Source of the DNA: a virus
Taxonomy: Duplodnaviria > Heunggongvirae > Uroviricota > Caudoviricetes
DNA length: 40,305 nucleotides
IMG/VR virus record: IMGVR_UViG_2721755720_000005
Direction: 5' to 3' (one strand)
Shown here: positions 4,165 to 15,963 of the stretch, piece by piece
How the letters are laid out: every line of letters begins with the position of its first letter
Numbering within the stretch: the stretch's first letter is position 1
The notes under the pieces: model-generated
Told to the model about the DNA's origin: nothing
The model's database searches: none
Seen by the model: the letters and a program-made list of their open reading frames with translations, nothing else
Position numbers and translations under genes: made by a program

Positions 4165-4381
4165 TTCACTGAATAACGCCCGTCGACTGACCGAACTTGC
4201 CGGTGCGGTACTGGAGCGCAGCAAACGCTACCCGCAACGCTTTGCACTGAAAACCACGCCGCCGCTAAGCAAGGTTCAGGGGACTGGGGAGGAAATTGAA
4301 ATCACCGTTAAGACCAATGGCCTGCGCCGCCGTGTAAAAGCCACCCGCATCAGCGGCTGCACGGTTTACTGGGAAGTATGA
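4151..4381 (+). CDS. Hypothetical small early protein
   Basis: 76-aa ORF overlapping neighbours by a few codons, as in translationally coupled phage operons. Confidence 0.45.
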   Translation: MNLFDSLNNARRLTELAGAVLERSKRYPQRFALKTTPPLSKVQGTGEEIEITVKTNGLRRRVKATRISGCTVYWEV

Positions 4382-10852: not shown

Positions 10853-11054
10853 ATGGCTGGCTGACTGCCTGGTCCCTCCTGTGCCGCAGCCGTTCACGTT
10901 TGGCGCATCGGTCACTTACAACCTGCAACTGCTGGCGGTGATTAAGAACTGCAACGTGGACAAGGCCAGCATCCGCCGTCTGGAGGCACAGCGACAGCAT
11001 GAATTTACTGATATGGCCGGAACGACTGCTGTTCCGGCAGGAAAGACAAAGTAA
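10683..11054 (+). CDS. o-spanin (Rz1-like outer-membrane lipoprotein), overlapped with the i-spanin in another frame
   Basis: Lipobox L-T-G-C followed by proline-rich segment; start within ORF 10572-11054 uncertain. Confidence 0.6.
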   Translation: MKNSRTCSTARNSRALSAGRWQRCLRPLFLCLMMWLTGCGGPSVKYVPVKPVPIPAEWLADCLVPPVPQPFTFGASVTYNLQLLAVIKNCNVDKASIRRLEAQRQHEFTDMAGTTAVPAGKTK

Positions 11055-11064
11055 GGAAAAAGGT

Positions 11065-11292
11065 ATGGATGATTCAGATTGTGCTCAGGCAGTCATGGAG
11101 CGGGCAACAGAACGCGCCTTTTGTGACCGGCTGACACGTAAGCGCCGGGTGGTGGAAACACCGGGCAGGCGTGTATGCGCGGACTGCGGGGGTGACATTC
11201 CGGCCGCCCGTCTGGTTGCTGTGCCGGATGCCATCCGTTGTGTGAACTGCCAGAACATCATGGAGGCCGGTCATGTGGGTCAGCATCGTTAA
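11065..11292 (+). CDS. TraR/DksA-family C4 zinc-finger protein
   Basis: CADC-x17-CVNC zinc-finger spacing; ATG 11065 preceded by AAGGAAAAAGG. Confidence 0.7.
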   Translation: MDDSDCAQAVMERATERAFCDRLTRKRRVVETPGRRVCADCGGDIPAARLVAVPDAIRCVNCQNIMEAGHVGQHR

Positions 11293-11584
11293 AGATTATG
11301 TCGTGCCGATCCTGTCGGCAACGGCCACGGCCGGGGGGATCTTTATGGCGCTGATGCGCAAAACCTTTGTCCCCCGCGAGGCCTTTGAAAAACTCTCCGA
11401 CCGGGTTGAGCGGGTGGAGAGCAGGATTTCCGGCCTGCCCACGCAGCAGGAGGTGAACAGACTCAATATCGAAATCACCACCCTGCGCGGTGAGCTTAAG
11501 GCCACCAATGCCACCCTGAAATCCGTCTCCCACCAGAACGAACTGCTGCTGGAGCAGGCTGTAAGGAAAAAACACAATGAGTGA
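11273..11584 (+). CDS. Small membrane/coiled-coil protein, possible lysis accessory (releasin-like by position)
   Basis: 103 aa; N-terminal hydrophobic helix then coiled coil; SD GGAGG. Confidence 0.55.
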   Translation: MWVSIVKDYVVPILSATATAGGIFMALMRKTFVPREAFEKLSDRVERVESRISGLPTQQEVNRLNIEITTLRGELKATNATLKSVSHQNELLLEQAVRKKHNE

Positions 11585-11867
11585 TTTCATTACTGAAGAT
11601 CAGCGTCTTGTCATTCTGCGGTCGCTGGCGGATTACAACGGCGAACTGGGCGAATCCGTGCTTCAGGACTGCCTCGATGATTACGGCCACCGCGTGTCCC
11701 GCGACACCGTTCATACCCACATTGCCTGGCTTGCCGAGCAGGGGCTGGTGCGTAAGCGCACGCTTGTTAACGGTTATTTCATCGCTGAACTGACCGGCCG
11801 GGGTCAGGATGTGGCGGAAGGCCGCGCCACCGTTCCGGGTGTGAAGAAACCACGCGCAAGGGGGTAA
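11577..11867 (+). CDS. Hypothetical protein with HTH-like segment
   Basis: 96 aa; SD AAGGAAAAAA; central HTH-like segment. Confidence 0.6.
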   Translation: MSDFITEDQRLVILRSLADYNGELGESVLQDCLDDYGHRVSRDTVHTHIAWLAEQGLVRKRTLVNGYFIAELTGRGQDVAEGRATVPGVKKPRARG

Positions 11868-11869
11868 CG

Positions 11870-12451
11870 ATGGATAAGCCAACGCGTGGCCGTGTACGCA
11901 AGGTGGATTTGCTCCCCGACAGCATCCGTAAGCCGCTGCTGGAAATGCTGCGTGAAAAACGTCTGACGCAGGTCCAGATCCGCGAGGAAATCAACCGTCT
12001 GATCCGTGAGGCAGGACTGCCGGAAGAGCAGCAGCTTTCACCGGCGGCCATCAGCCGGGAAGCCTCCCGTAATGAGCTGATTGCCCGTAACCTGCGTGAT
12101 TTGCGCGAGCAGACAAAAGCCATGATGGCCGAACTGGGGGACAAGCCAACCGGTGAAACCACGGCACTGATTCTGGAAATGTCCCGCGCCCTGATGTACC
12201 GCCGCCTGCGTGCTGCCACCGAATCCCTGAACAGCGACAGCGACGTGGATATGCGCCTCATCAAGGACATACTCCTGTCGGCACAGCGTGCGGAAAGCGC
12301 CGCCGAGCGCAGCATTAAGCGTGAAAAAGAAATCCGGGCCGCATTTGCTGAAGAGATGGCGAACGCGGTCACCGACGAGTTGCGTGGCGTGGATGGCATG
12401 AGCGAGCAGATAGAATTCCGTATCAGGCAGATGCTGCTTGGTAAGGCGTAG
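11870..12451 (+). CDS. Mu gp27-like protein (putative terminase small subunit / DNA-binding packaging protein)
   Basis: 193 aa; SD AGGGGG; positioned before the large terminase; helical, charged. Confidence 0.7.
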   Translation: MDKPTRGRVRKVDLLPDSIRKPLLEMLREKRLTQVQIREEINRLIREAGLPEEQQLSPAAISREASRNELIARNLRDLREQTKAMMAELGDKPTGETTALILEMSRALMYRRLRAATESLNSDSDVDMRLIKDILLSAQRAESAAERSIKREKEIRAAFAEEMANAVTDELRGVDGMSEQIEFRIRQMLLGKA

Positions 12452-12461
12452 GAGGTGAATA

Positions 12462-12710
12462 ATGGAAAAGAATATCAGGGCGCTAATAATCAGCGCCCGG
12501 CATGAAGCATTCAATCTTGCAACACAGTTACCTCCTGAAACCATAAAAGCGTGTCGTGAGTTGACTGAACTCAGCATTGCCGGGGAAATATCCCTGGAAC
12601 AACTGCATTTGCTGCTGGCAGGGGCTGTCACTGATGAATTGAGCAGCGTGGACGTGATGACTGAAGAGCTTGAGTCCAGAATCAGGGGCATTCTGACAGG
12701 TAAAGCATGA
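12462..12710 (+). CDS. Small protein whose C-terminus duplicates the C-terminus of the preceding gp27-like protein
   Basis: 82 aa; strong SD GGAGGTG; C-terminal AVTDELSSVDVMTEELESRIRGILTGKA parallels AVTDELRGVDGMSEQIEFRIRQMLLGKA. Confidence 0.6.
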   Translation: MEKNIRALIISARHEAFNLATQLPPETIKACRELTELSIAGEISLEQLHLLLAGAVTDELSSVDVMTEELESRIRGILTGKA

Positions 12711-14374
12711 TGAACGAAGCCAAAGAAACGTCTCCTTCACTGATACAAATGACGCCTCCCCGCAAAATTGATCTGTCCGGTGAAAAAGCCCTGCTGGGCG
12801 TGGATGTGCCGGATAGCCTTGATTTGCCCGGTGATATGCCGGTGTTTCTGGATTATCAGGCCCGCTGGTTTGCGGATGAAAGTCAGGTCTGCATCGCGGA
12901 GAAATCACGACGCACCGGTCTTACCTGGGCGGAAGCCGGGCGTAACGTCATTACCGCCGCAAAACCGAAGCGGCGTGGTGGCCGTAATGTGTTTTATGTA
13001 GGATCAAAGCAGGAGATGGCGCTGGAATATATTTCTGCCTGCGCGCTGTTCTCCCGTGCCTTTAACCAGCTGGCAGATGCTGATGTGTATGAACAGACCT
13101 TCTGGGATCGGGATAAAAAAGAAGAAATTCTGACCTACATGATCCGCTTTCCGAACAGTGGATTCAAAATTCAGGCACTGTCTTCCCGTCCATCAAACCT
13201 GCGCGGCCTTCAGGGGGATGTGGTGATTGATGAAGCCGCGTTCCACGAGTCGCTGGATGAGCTTCTCAAGGCGGCAATGGCGCTCACCATGTGGGGCGCG
13301 CGCGTGCGTATTATCTCCACGCATAACGGCGTCGATAATCTGTTTAATCAGTACATTCAGGAAGCCCGCGAGGGGCGCAAGGATTACAGCGTCCACCGCA
13401 TAACCCTGGATGATGCCATTGCGGACGGATTATACCGTCGTATCTGTTACGTCACCGATCAGGAATGGTCACCGGAAAGCGAGCAGAAATGGCGTGATGA
13501 TCTCTACAAAAACGCCCCGACCCGTGAGGATGCCGACGAGGAATACGGCTGTATCCCGAAAAAATCCGGCGGTGCCTATATTCCTCACGCGCTTATTGAA
13601 ATGGCGATGATCCGCGACATCCCGATTCTGACGTTTGAAGCCCCGGACAACTTCATCAGCCGTGCCGCATGGCTGCGTGAATCGGAAGTTTTAACCTGGT
13701 GTGAAGAACATTTAAAACCGCTTTTAGAGAAATTAAATCCCCGTTCCCGCTTCAGCTTCGGGGAAGACTTTGCCCGCACCGGTGACCTGTCCTGCTTTGT
13801 GCTGCTGGAAATCACCGAATCCCTGGCAAAGCGCGAGGTGTTTCGCGTGGAGCTGCGCAACCTGCCGTATGCCCAGCAGGAACAGGTGATGATGTACATC
13901 CTGACCCGCGTTCCGGCGCTGGTCGGTGCGGCGTTCGACGCCACCGGTAACGGCGGCTATCTGGCAGAGGCCGCACTGCTGGCCTTTGGCCCGGACATCA
14001 TCGACTGCGTGATGTTGTCGCCGAAGTGGTACGGCGAGTGGATGCCAAAACTGAAAGCCGAGTTTGAAGATCAGAATATCCTCGTCGCCCGCCATCAGAC
14101 CACGCTTGATGATTTGCGCCATGTGAAGGTGGTGAATGGTATCCCGCAAATCGACAAGGGGCGCACGAAGGACCAGAACGCAACGGCTGCGAACGCCCGC
14201 CGCCATGGTGATTTTGCCGTGGCACTCTGTATGGCAAACCGGGCGTCATACATGGAGGGTTTCATCCTGGATGAATCAGCCTGTCAGGCGCTGCCGGAGC
14301 GGTCGCGGGCAATGGAGGGCGGTTATCGTGATGACGATGAGGCATATCATGAATTTGATCGGGGGTGCTGGTAG
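12707..14374 (+). CDS. Terminase large subunit
   Basis: 555 aa; ATPase plus nuclease-sized protein preceding the portal. Confidence 0.9.
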   Translation: MMNEAKETSPSLIQMTPPRKIDLSGEKALLGVDVPDSLDLPGDMPVFLDYQARWFADESQVCIAEKSRRTGLTWAEAGRNVITAAKPKRRGGRNVFYVGSKQEMALEYISACALFSRAFNQLADADVYEQTFWDRDKKEEILTYMIRFPNSGFKIQALSSRPSNLRGLQGDVVIDEAAFHESLDELLKAAMALTMWGARVRIISTHNGVDNLFNQYIQEAREGRKDYSVHRITLDDAIADGLYRRICYVTDQEWSPESEQKWRDDLYKNAPTREDADEEYGCIPKKSGGAYIPHALIEMAMIRDIPILTFEAPDNFISRAAWLRESEVLTWCEEHLKPLLEKLNPRSRFSFGEDFARTGDLSCFVLLEITESLAKREVFRVELRNLPYAQQEQVMMYILTRVPALVGAAFDATGNGGYLAEAALLAFGPDIIDCVMLSPKWYGEWMPKLKAEFEDQNILVARHQTTLDDLRHVKVVNGIPQIDKGRTKDQNATAANARRHGDFAVALCMANRASYMEGFILDESACQALPERSRAMEGGYRDDDEAYHEFDRGCW

Positions 14375-15963
14375 TGGGACGCATCATTGATACTAACGGA
14401 AAACCTTTCTCCTTTGACCCGGAGATGCAGAGTGCCGCGCTGGATATTCCGCAGATTGCCAGCCGTTATATTGAACATCCGGCTTCGGGTATCACCCCGA
14501 ACCGGGCGGCGCAGTGCCTTCGCGGGGCTGAACGTGGCGATCTGATTGCCCAGTCCGATCTGGCCGCTGATATTGAAGAAAAGGACACCCACCTTTTTGC
14601 GGAGCTGGGCAAGCGACGTCTTGCCATTCAGGGGGTGCCATGGAGCATTGAGCCGCCACCGAACGCCAGCGCGAATGAGAAAAAGGACGCGGAAATGCTC
14701 GACGAATATCTGCATTCCGCCGACTGGTTTGATGCCATGCTGTTTGACGCCACGGATGCCATCCTGAAGGGCTATTCCTGCATGGAAATCGAGCACGGGA
14801 TGCTCGGTAAAATGCACATCATCCGCGCCATCCGCTGGCGTGACAGCGGGCATTTCTGCCTTAACCCGGATGATTTGAGCGAGCTGCGACTGCGTGACGG
14901 CAGCCATGCCGGGGTGGCGTTTCAGCCCTTTGGCTGGATAGTGCATCAGTCGCGTTCACGCACCGGCTATGGTGGTGCAACCGGGCTTGTCCGGACGCTT
15001 ATCTGGCCGTTCATTTTCAAAAACTATTCCGTGCGCGATCTGGCGGAATTTCTGGAGGTGTACGGCCTGCCAATGAAGGTCGGGAAATACCCGTCCGGGG
15101 CAACGCCGGAGCAGAAAAGTGCCCTGATGCGGGCGGTGATGGATATCGGGCGACGTACAGGCGGGATCATCCCGGCCGGGATGTCGCTGGAGTTTCAGGC
15201 GGCAGCGAACGGTCAGGCCGATCCGTTTGAAACCATGATTTCGTGGGGGGAGCGTTCCATCTCCAAAGCAATACTCGGCGGTACGCTGACCACGGAAGCC
15301 GGAGACAAAGGCGCGCGCTCACTGGGTGAGGTGCATAACGAGGTGCGCCGGGAAATCAGGGATTCTGATTTGCGCCAGCTGGCTGCAACCCTGAACCGAG
15401 ATCTGGTGTATCCGCTGTATGCTCTGAACACCACGCATGTCATTGATATCCGCCGTCTGCCGCGTATCTGTTTCCAGACCAAAGAACCGGGGGATATCAC
15501 CAAAATAACCAGTGCGGTGATGCAACTCAGTGCGGGGATGGATATTCCTGATCCCTGGGTACGGGAGCAGACCGGTATTCCACAGCCCACGCCCGGTGAA
15601 GCCATATTCCGTGTCCGTCAGAACAGTAATGAACCGGCCATGCCTGACAGGGAAACGCTACCGGAAAAACAGGAAAAGACAGAACAGACGGCGCTTTCAG
15701 CCCGACTGCCGGAAGCGAAAAACACGCCGCGTGATGAACTGGACGACATGGGGGACGCGGTGCCTGCCCGCCGCTTACAGGAGGCCATCGATCCGGTGCT
15801 GGAGCCGGTCATTGATGCCATCAGAACGCGGGGGCTGGCGGATGCGCTGGCAGACCTGCCTGCCCTTTATCGTGAAATGGATGATTCCCGCCTGATGACG
15901 CTGCTCAGTGATGCCATGTTCGCTGCGGAAATGAAGGGGATGCTGGATGACACAGGGGATTGA
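14365..15963 (+). CDS. Portal protein (Mu gp29-like)
   Basis: 532 aa; GTG start overlapping the terminase stop; followed by F. Confidence 0.9.
   Translation: MLVVGRIIDTNGKPFSFDPEMQSAALDIPQIASRYIEHPASGITPNRAAQCLRGAERGDLIAQSDLAADIEEKDTHLFAELGKRRLAIQGVPWSIEPPPNASANEKKDAEMLDEYLHSADWFDAMLFDATDAILKGYSCMEIEHGMLGKMHIIRAIRWRDSGHFCLNPDDLSELRLRDGSHAGVAFQPFGWIVHQSRSRTGYGGATGLVRTLIWPFIFKNYSVRDLAEFLEVYGLPMKVGKYPSGATPEQKSALMRAVMDIGRRTGGIIPAGMSLEFQAAANGQADPFETMISWGERSISKAILGGTLTTEAGDKGARSLGEVHNEVRREIRDSDLRQLAATLNRDLVYPLYALNTTHVIDIRRLPRICFQTKEPGDITKITSAVMQLSAGMDIPDPWVREQTGIPQPTPGEAIFRVRQNSNEPAMPDRETLPEKQEKTEQTALSARLPEAKNTPRDELDDMGDAVPARRLQEAIDPVLEPVIDAIRTRGLADALADLPALYREMDDSRLMTLLSDAMFAAEMKGMLDDTGD

What the first reader, a model, noticed from the sequence alone, without database searches (positions are those of the whole stretch)
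12462..12710. Small gene duplicating only the C-terminal tail of the gp27-like packaging protein
The 82-aa product ends with a 28-residue segment closely parallel to the C-terminus of the preceding 193-aa protein, while the DNA has diverged. It has its own strong SD and lies directly before the large terminase. If that tail is the large-terminase interaction motif, this could be an alternative or regulatory packaging partner.
Basis: seen in the sequence. Interest (0 to 1): 0.5.

Follow-up and report, generated by a model that had tools for sequence, protein, structure and literature searches.

The report
Chimeric small gene carrying terminase tail
In a Mu-like prophage, an 82-codon gene between the small and large terminase genes really does end in a copy of the small terminase's C-terminal tail, but it looks like a young, dispensable, weakly constrained recombination product, not an established packaging regulator.

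Summary
ORF82 (12462-12710) ends in a 28-31 residue copy of the C-terminus of the preceding gp27 small terminase (19/31 identical, E 4e-10). The rest of ORF82 is unrelated to gp27.

That tail is the best-conserved part of gp27-type small terminases, from E. coli to Pseudomonas phages.

ORF82 is a chimera. A ~50-residue orphan helical core, also found without the tail as a 67-aa ORF in a sister allele, is fused to gp27-derived DNA. That DNA is closer to another gp27 lineage than to its neighbour (79% vs 65% nt). It sits in a 350-bp mosaic block that includes the variable first ~17 codons of TerL.

The gene occurs in 24 of ~230 E. coli genomes carrying this prophage type. It is absent from Mu, Salmonella, Vibrio and Pseudomonas relatives.

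It evolves almost neutrally (non/syn ratio 0.65, against 0.04 for gp27 and TerL), and its tail has lost family-invariant residues. Yet its frame, Shine-Dalgarno site and stop/start overlap with TerL are intact in all 18 loci.

The likeliest reading is a recombination-born ORF kept open mainly because it delivers ribosomes to TerL. A terminase-tail mimic is not excluded.

The parts
11870..12451 (+). gp27-type small terminase (TerS), 193 aa, with the 'C1' tail variant
   Evidence: PF11985 3.1e-33 and phrog_426 'terminase small subunit' 8.6e-55. 62 synonymous and 7 nonsynonymous polymorphisms among 17 loci.
12365..12448 (+). Genuine TerS C-terminal tail, AVTDELRGVDGMSEQIEFRIRQMLLGKA (copy 1)
   Evidence: Most conserved segment of the family across Mu, Vibrio and Pseudomonas phages. 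17 synonymous and 2 nonsynonymous changes. 63.5 bits on the tail HMM. AF2, at low confidence, gives a loop at 172-178 and a terminal helix at 179-189.
12407..12759 (+). Mosaic block that differs from the common ORF-less allele. It holds the distal half of the gp27 tail, the Shine-Dalgarno site, ORF82 and the first ~17 TerL codons
   Evidence: Alignments with ORF-less relatives L001 and L003 are near-identical outside these limits (coordinates). GC drops from ~0.59 to 0.46-0.50.
12451..12457 (+). Shine-Dalgarno site GGAGGTG of ORF82, overlapping the gp27 TAG stop
   Evidence: Read from the sequence. Conserved in 16 of 18 ORF82 loci, with an ATG or GTG start.
12462..12710 (+). ORF82, the chimeric small gene (phrog_30922, unknown function)
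   Evidence: Reading frame intact in 18/18 loci and 11 haplotypes. Nonsynonymous/synonymous ratio 0.65.
12462..12604 (+). Orphan core of ORF82 (about aa 1-48), predicted as three helices. No homologue outside this locus; shared with the tail-less ORF67 allele
   Evidence: Profile search of 1.84 billion representative proteins found only this family and its variants. P0011/ORF67 aligns to positions 1-56. AF2 helices 3-22, 25-39 and 45-60, with pLDDT ~70-80 in the core. No similarity to gp27.
12478..12498 (.). Inverted repeat GGGCGCT-AATAATC-AGCGCCC inside the 5' part of ORF82
   Evidence: Partly kept in other alleles, with one compensatory pair. Significance unknown.
12605..12614 (+). gp27-derived DNA (GCATTTGCTG) read in a different frame from gp27, followed by a 5-nt gap that restores the gp27 frame. 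Probable recombination joint
   Evidence: 10/10 match to 12341-12350, local shuffle p = 0.004, anchored alignment.
12615..12707 (+). Tail copy 2, (L)AGAVTDELSSVDVMTEELESRIRGILTGKA: a degenerate TerS tail
   Evidence: BLASTP 19/31, E 4e-10. 79% nt identity to the tail of the ORF-less allele, but 65% to the neighbouring gp27 tail. 6 synonymous and 8 nonsynonymous changes. 33-46 bits on the tail HMM. AF2 gives a low-confidence loop and then helix 68-79.
12707..12712 (+). Stop/start overlap ATGATG: the ORF82 TGA (12708-12710) overlaps both candidate TerL ATGs (12707 and 12710). Only 12710 is conserved in relatives
12710..14374 (+). Large terminase (TerL). Codons 1-17 form a hypervariable leader; the conserved region starts at PRKIDL
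   Evidence: phrog_2 6.5e-43. Leader: 2 synonymous and 7 nonsynonymous changes; codons 23-250: 58 synonymous and 7 nonsynonymous. N-termini compared.

Best explanation
ORF82 is a young chimeric gene restricted to one lineage. It was created by mosaic recombination at the TerS-TerL junction of E. coli Mu-like prophages.

The ancestral arrangement is gp27 (TerS) directly stop/start-coupled to TerL. One sub-lineage acquired a small orphan ORF just after gp27, with the same Shine-Dalgarno site and start codon, seen as the tail-less ORF67.

In the window's allele, a second exchange brought in the 5' end of TerL from another gp27 lineage. The last ~30 codons of that lineage's gp27 came with it, because they are physically and translationally coupled to the TerL start. 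The joint, at a GCA microhomology with a 5-nt gap that restores the frame, fused the orphan core in frame to this foreign TerS tail.

Shown: the chimeric structure, its polymorphic and dispensable status, near-neutral protein evolution, and loss of family-invariant tail residues.

Inferred: what selection preserves is mainly an open frame translated from its strong Shine-Dalgarno site to the TGATG junction. Terminating ribosomes would then re-initiate on TerL, which has only a weak SD of its own. The tail peptide would be a drifting relic with at most residual affinity for TerL.
For: 1. Four alleles of the junction show the modular make-up.
- (i) gp27-TGATG-TerL.
- (ii) gp27-SD-ORF82(core+tail)-TGATG-TerL.
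- (iii) gp27-SD-ORF67 (core, no tail)-120 nt-TerL with a different leader.
- (iv) gp27-SD-9-codon stub overlapping the TerL start.

2. The direct junction is ancestral. Mu, two Vibrio phages, Pseudomonas JBD25, Salmonella prophages and 206 E. coli records have no intervening ORF. ORF82 DNA is present in only 24 of 5426 complete E. coli genomes. Across 5.8 billion and 1.84 billion protein sets it forms a single narrow family.

3. The tail was imported, not duplicated in place. It shares 65% nt identity with the neighbouring gp27 tail, with saturated dS, against 79% with the tail of the ORF-less allele. The block has lower GC.

4. A joint is visible: a 10-nt gp27 match read out of frame, then a 5-nt gap.

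5. Constraint differs sharply.
- ORF82: 16 synonymous and 33 nonsynonymous changes (ratio 0.65, p = 0.10); variable sites by codon position 14/17/21.
- gp27: 62 and 7; variable sites 5/3/57.
- ORF82 tail 6 and 8 against gp27 tail 17 and 2 (Fisher p = 0.007).

6. The tail is degenerate: 33-46 bits against 60-72 for genuine tails, with G176V, S178T and L190T fixed.

7. The frame is kept while the sequence drifts.
- 18/18 loci are intact, with SD and an ATG or GTG start.
- The chance of no stop codon under neutrality is roughly 0.04-0.14.
- Two of the three indel variants seen are in frame.
- The stop/start overlap with TerL is kept in alleles i, ii and iv and in distant phages.
Against: - Coupling is inferred from geometry only.
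- The TerL start region in the window is unusually unstructured (z +1.9), so nothing shows that TerL initiation needs upstream translation.
- Allele iii has a 120-nt gap before TerL, so coupling is not obligatory in this phage group.
- The ratio is below 1 (0.39 for the tail, 0.36-0.45 for the core against ORF67). This is typical of many real small accessory phage genes, so a protein-level function is not excluded.
- The evidence for frame maintenance is weak (p about 0.04-0.14).
- The donor lineage, a gp27 carrying exactly this tail and joined directly to this TerL leader, was not found.
- The order of events (ORF67 to ORF82 or the reverse) is not resolved.
Confidence: 0.55

Rival explanations
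1. ORF82 is a functional small protein that uses its TerS-like tail to dock on TerL. It could act as a competitor or decoy, a chaperone, or an adaptor that tunes terminase assembly. It might even interfere with packaging by co-resident Mu-like prophages whose TerS tail it resembles more closely than its own neighbour's.
For: - The TerS tail is the most conserved part of the family.
- By analogy with lambda and P22, it should bind the TerL N-terminus (PMC9611059).
- ORF82 keeps 9-10 of about 14 conserved tail positions and still scores 33-46 bits.
- It has a strong SD and an intact frame in 18/18 loci.
- The ratio for the tail is 0.39, below 1.
- AF2 suggests a small helical core with a flexible linker and terminal helix, the same tail geometry as gp27.
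- The tail is closer to the common ORF-less allele's tail than to its own gp27's.
- E. coli genomes carry up to 4 such prophages.
Against: - Evolution is near neutral overall, and the tail ratio is not significantly below 1 (p = 0.08).
- Every DNA haplotype encodes a different protein.
- Tail changes include L70P and changes of the terminal residue.
- Family-invariant G176 is replaced in all alleles.
- The gene is absent from about 90% of closest relatives and deleted in allele iv.
- A sister allele has the core without any tail.
- No structural or sequence relative is known.
Confidence: 0.25
2. ORF82 has no function at all, neither as a protein nor in cis. It is a neutral scar of recombination that has simply not yet been broken.
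For: - The nonsynonymous/synonymous ratio is not significantly different from 1, and variation by codon position is flat.
- It is dispensable in relatives.
- A frameshifted variant (P0010) and truncated calls (P0008, P0009) exist.
- The chance of staying open by luck is not negligible, at 0.04-0.14.
Against: - SD, start codon, frame and exact stop/start overlap are kept in 18/18 loci across synonymous divergence of ~0.2-0.3.
- The observed indels are mostly in frame.
- The apparent frame-restoring 5-nt gap at the joint suggests that reading through to the TerL start mattered.
- gp27 and TerL in the same loci are under strong purifying selection, so these are or recently were working phages.
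Confidence: 0.15
3. ORF82 arose by a local tandem duplication of the 3' end of the resident gp27 gene, followed by divergence.
For: The two copies lie 259 bp apart in the same orientation, and protein similarity is significant.
Against: - The two tails share 65% nt identity with saturated synonymous sites, while the flanking genes differ by only ~4-8% between alleles.
- Copy 2 is closer to the tail of another gp27 lineage (79%).
- Copy 2 is linked to a different TerL leader.
- The core has no similarity to gp27 and exists independently in ORF67.
Confidence: 0.03

Closest known systems
Phage Mu gp27 / DUF3486 (Pfam PF11985, phrog_426) small terminase subunit
   Same: The last ~28 residues of ORF82 are homologous to the family's C-terminal motif RGxDGMSExLExRIxGxLLGKA. 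The predicted geometry is also the same: loop plus short terminal helix.
   Different: ORF82 lacks the HTH-like N-terminus and the long helical body. It does not match PF11985 even at E 10. It has replaced family-invariant tail residues and evolves about 15 times less constrained. It shares a motif but is not a member.
phrog_30922 (PHROGs v4, unknown function); RefSeq 'hypothetical protein' such as WP_101973587.1 and WP_000255659.1
   Same: ORF82 is a member: 2e-42 over residues 5-82 of an 82-position profile. It has the same position between gp27 and TerL in E. coli prophages.
   Different: Nothing is recorded about the family's chimeric origin or its TerS-tail homology.
TerS C-terminus to TerL N-terminus interface of lambda (gpNu1-gpA) and P22 (gp3 residues 140-162 with gp2 residues 1-58)
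   Same: There is a flexible C-terminal TerS segment next to the TerL N-terminus. Here the tail copy and the TerL leader travel together as one mosaic block, as expected if the two ends form a unit (PMC9611059).
   Different: There is no sequence relationship to lambda or P22 proteins. Binding was not tested here. The TerL leader (codons 1-17) itself evolves neutrally, so simple physical linkage explains the co-inheritance equally well.
Mosaic-joint chimeric ORFs and small inserted genes ('morons') in temperate phage genomes (general knowledge, Hendrix-type mosaicism)
   Same: Sharp homology boundaries, a GC shift, presence/absence polymorphism among close relatives, an own Shine-Dalgarno site, orphan sequence, and weak constraint.
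   Different: It has no promoter or terminator of its own. It sits inside an essential, translationally coupled gene pair. It incorporates a piece of the neighbouring essential gene's homologue.
Satellite-encoded packaging-interference or redirection proteins (SaPI Ppi, PICI Rpp; from my own knowledge)
   Same: The analogy is conceptual only: a small protein that could target a terminase subunit interface.
   Different: Those proteins are encoded by satellites, bind TerS, and have experimental support. ORF82 is phage-encoded, no homology to any such family was detected, and there is no evidence of interference.

Membership tests
Phage_Mu_Gp27 / DUF3486 small terminase (PF11985) | Whole-protein match to the PF11985 profile above the gathering score (28 bits) | tested here: not met
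   ORF82 has no PF11985 hit at E<=0.01 or at E<=10. The neighbouring gp27 scores 116 bits.
Phage_Mu_Gp27 / DUF3486 small terminase (PF11985) | N-terminal HTH-like DNA-binding region and long helical oligomerisation body | tested here: not met
   ORF82 residues 1-51 show no similarity to the gp27 body. The AF2 model is a short three-helix core, against HTH-like helices plus helices of 26-44 residues in gp27 (low confidence).
Phage_Mu_Gp27 / DUF3486 small terminase (PF11985) | Conserved C-terminal motif RGxDGMSExLExRIxGxLLGKA-COOH | tested here: inconclusive
   The motif is present but degenerate: 33-46 bits against 60-72 for genuine tails. G176V, S178T and L190T are fixed, and R172/G173 are changed.
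phrog_30922 (unknown function) | Full-length profile match | tested here: met
   E 2e-42, 144 bits, residues 5-82 on profile positions 5-82 of 82.
Translationally coupled TerS-TerL junction of Mu-like phages | Stop codon of the upstream ORF overlaps or abuts the TerL start codon | tested here: met
   The ORF82 TGA (12708-12710) overlaps ATG 12707 and ATG 12710. TGATG is also seen in the ORF-less allele, and 1-nt overlaps or gaps of up to 7 nt in Salmonella, Vibrio, JBD25 and Mu.
Translationally coupled TerS-TerL junction of Mu-like phages | TerL synthesis depends on translation of the upstream ORF | not testable with these tools
   The only indirect data are a weak TerL SD (AGG) and an unstructured start region. 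Reporter fusions are needed.
TerL-binding TerS tail (lambda/P22-type interface) | Physical binding of the tail to TerL | not testable with these tools
   Single-chain structure prediction only.
Terminase-interference proteins of satellites (Ppi, Rpp) | Sequence or structural homology and satellite context | tested here: not met
   No Pfam family at E<=0.01, and only two chance-level matches at E<=10. No BFVD fold match with E<=0.001. The context is a complete Mu-like late operon, not a satellite.

The most novel reading that the evidence does not exclude
ORF82 is a newly born terminase-tail mimic. By displaying a TerS C-terminal tail on an unrelated three-helix core, it would occupy the TerS-docking site of TerL and modulate packaging. 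It could buffer its own terminase. Alternatively, because its tail resembles the common ORF-less lineage's TerS more than its own, it could sabotage packaging by rival Mu-like prophages in polylysogens. That would be a phage-encoded analogue of satellite packaging-interference proteins, caught at an early stage of gene birth.
Probability: 0.12. Interest if true: 0.7.

Novelty: new member of a known kind. Interest (0 to 1): 0.3.

Why it matters
Taken as the ordinary case, it is a clean, datable example of how mosaic recombination at an essential, translationally coupled gene pair creates a new chimeric ORF. It also shows how such an ORF can be kept open by its position and not by its product.

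As a by-product, the analysis singles out the C-terminal ~22 residues of gp27-type small terminases (RGxDGMSExLExRIxGxLLGKA) as the invariant element of an otherwise fast-diverging family. It also shows that TerL conservation starts at PRKIDL after a free-running leader. Both are concrete targets for mapping the still uncharacterised Mu TerS-TerL interface.

If the tail copy does bind TerL, the gene would be a natural dominant-interfering peptide for Mu-type terminases.

Tried and rejected
- Similarity of the ORF82 core to the gp27 body, or to anything else in the window, as protein or DNA: none above shuffles.
- Another genomic source for the core. Sensitive blastn against 5426 E. coli genomes and 50,697 phage records found it only at this locus. 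A word-indexed search of 5.8 billion proteins and an HMM search of 1.84 billion representatives found only this family, the tail-less ORF67, one rearranged contig (P0012) and a spurious LRR protein.
- Pfam at E<=10 for ORF82 gave only chance-level MukF_M and NTase hits.
- Foldseek of the ORF82 model against BFVD gave nothing at E<=0.001.
- A PDB sequence search with a gp27 profile found no solved relative.
- Search for the donor, a gp27 carrying the ORF82-type tail directly joined to TerL. Identities in E. coli are bimodal (>=90% always with ORF82, or 75-77%), with no intermediate. Salmonella and E. coli gp27 cluster representatives show none either.
- Tandem in-situ duplication: rejected on 65% nt identity.
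- RNA structure sequestering the TerL start: not found; the region is less structured than 199 of 200 shuffles.
- Conserved hairpin in the 5' part of ORF82: only 5 consensus pairs and one compensatory pair; not pursued.
- Look-ups of the 49-aa truncated variants P0008 and P0009 returned nothing on record, so it is unknown whether they reflect disrupted alleles.
- Antisense ORFs over the region (12038-12691 and 12528-12908, minus strand) have no family hits.
- Literature search for Mu gp27 terminase found nothing on this ORF.
- Co-folding tails with TerL was not possible with the single-chain predictor.

Full report
CONTEXT. The window is the late region of a Mu-like prophage of the E. coli type. 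The gene order is Mor, lysozyme, spanins, TraR/DksA zinc finger (10999-11292), DUF2730 (11273-11584) and a winged-helix gp26-like protein (11577-11867). These are followed by gp27 (11870-12451), the 82-codon ORF (12462-12710), the large terminase (12707 or 12710 to 14374) and the Mu-type portal (14365-15963). gp27 matches PF11985 at 3e-33 and phrog_426 'terminase small subunit' at 9e-55. In phage Mu the homologue is annotated as the small terminase, gene D.

- BLASTP aligns ORF82 52-82 with gp27 163-193: 19/31 identical, no gaps, E 4e-10.
- A PHROG built for the small ORF (phrog_30922, unknown function) is hit by ORF82 at 2e-42, and by gp27 only through its last 32 residues at 6e-8.
- The first 51 residues of ORF82 have no similarity to the rest of gp27 or to anything else in the window.
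- The ORF has GGAGGTG six bases upstream of its ATG, overlapping the gp27 TAG stop. Its TGA overlaps the TerL start.
- The two tail-coding stretches share only 65% nt identity, with synonymous sites saturated.

2. WHAT THE TAIL IS IN GENUINE gp27.
- I aligned gp27 from the window, the ORF-less E. coli allele, Salmonella, Mu, two Vibrio phages and Pseudomonas phage JBD25. Overall identity falls to 32%.
- The last ~22 residues are the best-conserved part of the family: RGxDGMSExLExRIxGxLLGKA-COOH. The JBD25 tail is nearly identical to the E. coli one.
- A low-confidence AF2 model (pLDDT 58) gives HTH-like N-terminal helices, three long helices, a loop at 172-178 and a terminal helix at 179-189. 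This is the generic TerS layout of DNA-binding head, helical oligomerisation body and flexible C-terminal moiety described in the review PMC9611059.
- The same review states that the C-terminal region of lambda and P22 TerS binds TerL. It also says the P22 site maps to the TerL N-terminus (residues 1-23 and 1-58). A TerL-docking role for the gp27 tail is therefore a reasonable inference. It is not shown here, and no solved structure exists for this family.

3. DISTRIBUTION.
- Of 5426 complete E. coli genomes, about 230 carry this prophage type.
- Only 24 genomes carry DNA of the ORF82 core, always between gp27 and TerL.
- In 206 records gp27 is joined directly to TerL by a TGATG overlap.
- There is no ORF at this position in Mu, Vibrio phages 1.028.O and ZX4290, Pseudomonas JBD25 or Salmonella prophages. 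No isolated phage in the 50,697-record collection has it.
- The word-indexed search of 5.8 billion proteins returned 10 clusters, all named ones from E. coli.
- An exhaustive profile search of 1.84 billion representatives returned one family cluster plus variants.
- The direct junction is therefore ancestral, and ORF82 is a recent acquisition restricted to one lineage.

4. ANATOMY: A CHIMERA IN A MOSAIC BLOCK.
Against ORF-less relatives the window is near-identical up to 12406 and again from 12759. The 353 bp between are replaced or inserted, and GC falls from ~0.59 to 0.46-0.50. Four alleles of the junction were recovered.
- (i) gp27 with tail ...SEQLESRIKGILLGKA, then TGATG, then TerL starting MNNAEELSPLL.
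- (ii) The window type: gp27 with tail ...SEQIEFRIRQMLLGKA, then SD and ORF82, then TGATG, then TerL starting MNEAKETSPSL.
- (iii) The same gp27 tail, SD and start, then a 67-aa ORF (P0011), then 120 nt, then TerL with a third leader. HMMER aligns the first ~56 residues of P0011 to the ORF82 core, but it ends QSSRRGKT with no gp27-like tail.
- (iv) The second prophage of strain CI5: the small ORF is deleted after codon 4, leaving a 9-codon stub (MATDWFSYE) whose stop lies just inside the TerL start.

All four converge at the TerL motif PRKIDL, which is also where conservation begins in Mu, Vibrio and Pseudomonas TerL.

So the orphan core and the tail are separable modules. The tail in ORF82 is closer to the allele-(i) tail (79% nt) than to its own neighbour's (65%). 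It therefore came from a different gp27 lineage, together with the TerL leader next to it, and not from a local duplication.

DNA homology to gp27 continues 10 nt upstream of the protein homology. GCATTTGCTG at 12605-12614 equals 12341-12350 (shuffle p 0.004) and is followed by a 5-nt gap. ORF82 residues ~49-52 are therefore gp27-derived DNA read in another frame, and the frame returns to that of gp27 just before A-x-A-VTDEL. This looks like an illegitimate joint plus a frame-restoring indel.

5. SELECTION.
I compared 17-18 loci of allele (ii), which hold 11 distinct ORF82 haplotypes, each encoding a different protein.

| Region | Synonymous | Nonsynonymous | Per-site ratio |
|---|---|---|---|
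| gp27, whole | 62 | 7 | 0.04 |
| gp27 own tail | 17 | 2 | 0.03 |
| TerL codons 23-250 | 58 | 7 | 0.04 |
| ORF82, whole | 16 | 33 | 0.65 (p = 0.10 against neutrality) |
| ORF82 tail | 6 | 8 | 0.39 (p = 0.08) |
| TerL codons 1-22 | 2 | 7 | ~1 |

- The ORF82 tail differs from the gp27 tail (Fisher p = 0.007).
- Variable sites by codon position are 14/17/21 in ORF82, against 5/3/57 in gp27.
- Against ORF67, core codons 2-34 give omega 0.36-0.45.
- On an HMM of genuine TerS tails, real tails score 60-72 bits. This includes the window's own gp27 tail, which was not in the training set, at 63.5 bits. ORF82 tails score 33-46 bits.
- Residues that are invariant or nearly invariant in the family are replaced in every ORF82 allele: G176V, S178T and L190T.
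- One allele has L70P, and the terminal Ala varies.
- Even so, all 18 loci keep the SD, an ATG or GTG start, the frame and the exact overlap with TerL.
- The chance of no stop codon arising under neutrality is roughly 0.04-0.14.
- Two of the three indel variants in the protein database are in frame.

6. MECHANISM.
The pattern of an open frame that is kept while the sequence drifts, ending exactly at the TerL start, is best explained by position. The ORF occupies the slot through which ribosomes reach TerL.

TerL has only a weak AGG upstream. In the ancestral and most derived alleles it is stop/start-coupled to whatever ORF precedes it, including the 9-codon stub of allele (iv). Fusing the orphan ORF in frame to the imported gp27 relic recreated that coupling. 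Out of frame, the ORF would have stopped about 50 nt short.

This step is inferred. The RNA around the TerL start is unstructured, and allele (iii) manages with a 120-nt gap, so coupling may be helpful without being required.

The tail peptide, a flexible linker plus a short helix in the AF2 model (pLDDT 69.5), may retain some affinity for TerL.

7. COMPARISON AND VERDICT.
- ORF82 is a member of phrog_30922, a catalogued family of unknown function.
- It is not a member of the gp27/DUF3486 family. It fails the Pfam profile and lacks the DNA-binding and oligomerisation parts. It only carries a degenerate copy of the family's C-terminal motif.
- It belongs to the known phenomenon of chimeric ORFs formed at mosaic joints in temperate phages. 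The unusual detail is that the joint lies inside an essential coupled gene pair and captured the partner gene's interaction tail.
- Interest is moderate to low. It is a tidy case of gene birth by recombination and a useful pointer to the Mu TerS tail motif, but not a new system.

Noticed in passing
window 12707-12712: The window has two in-frame ATGs for TerL (12707 and 12710). Relatives have GCC in place of GCA and therefore only the second, so TerL most likely starts at 12710 (554 aa, MNEAKE...).
   Followed up: partly
window 12710-12760; L003, L013, L027-L030: The first ~17-25 residues of TerL form a leader of variable length that evolves neutrally (2 synonymous and 7 nonsynonymous changes). 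Conservation starts abruptly at PRKIDLxxExxLLGVD in E. coli, Mu, Vibrio and Pseudomonas phages. That motif is a candidate docking site for the TerS tail.
   Followed up: partly
window 12365-12448 and gp27 homologues (alignment A7): The C-terminal ~22 residues of gp27-type small terminases are nearly identical between E. coli prophages and Pseudomonas phage JBD25, although the proteins are only 32% identical overall.
   Followed up: yes
window 12478-12498: Inverted repeat GGGCGCT(AATAATC)AGCGCCC within codons 6-12 of ORF82. It is a perfect 9-bp stem in the ORF67 allele (L013) and is partly kept, with one compensatory pair, in other alleles. On the minus strand it is scored as terminator-like.
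   Followed up: partly
L018 3488-3517 (E. coli CI5, second Mu-like prophage): The small ORF is deleted after codon 4, leaving a 9-codon ORF (MATDWFSYE) with the same SD. Its stop overlaps the TerL start region. The same strain also carries an ORF-less prophage of the common type (L003).
   Followed up: yes
L013 4205-4323: In the ORF67 allele a 120-nt stretch of unknown origin lies between the small ORF and TerL. An in-frame upstream ATG at 4249 could extend TerL by 25 residues.
   Followed up: no
P0015 (291 aa, Logan contig): The gp26-like winged-helix protein and gp27 are fused into one reading frame in one assembly. This is either a real fusion or a sequencing frameshift.
   Followed up: no
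window 12707-14374: The large terminase has no Pfam-A match at all, even at E 10. It is recognised only by PHROG profiles (phrog_2, 6.5e-43).
   Followed up: no
window 11779-12399 and 12038-12691, minus strand: Long antisense ORFs (206 and 217 aa) lie opposite gp27 and ORF82. The 217-aa ORF and a third antisense ORF (12528-12908, 126 aa) have no Pfam hit; the 206-aa ORF was not searched. I take all three to be by-products of GC-rich coding sequence on the other strand.
   Followed up: partly
L017 371-613 (P0012): A short contig joins the first 24 codons of the small ORF to a baseplate-gene region (GpP-like). This is either an assembly chimera or a large deletion within a prophage.
   Followed up: no
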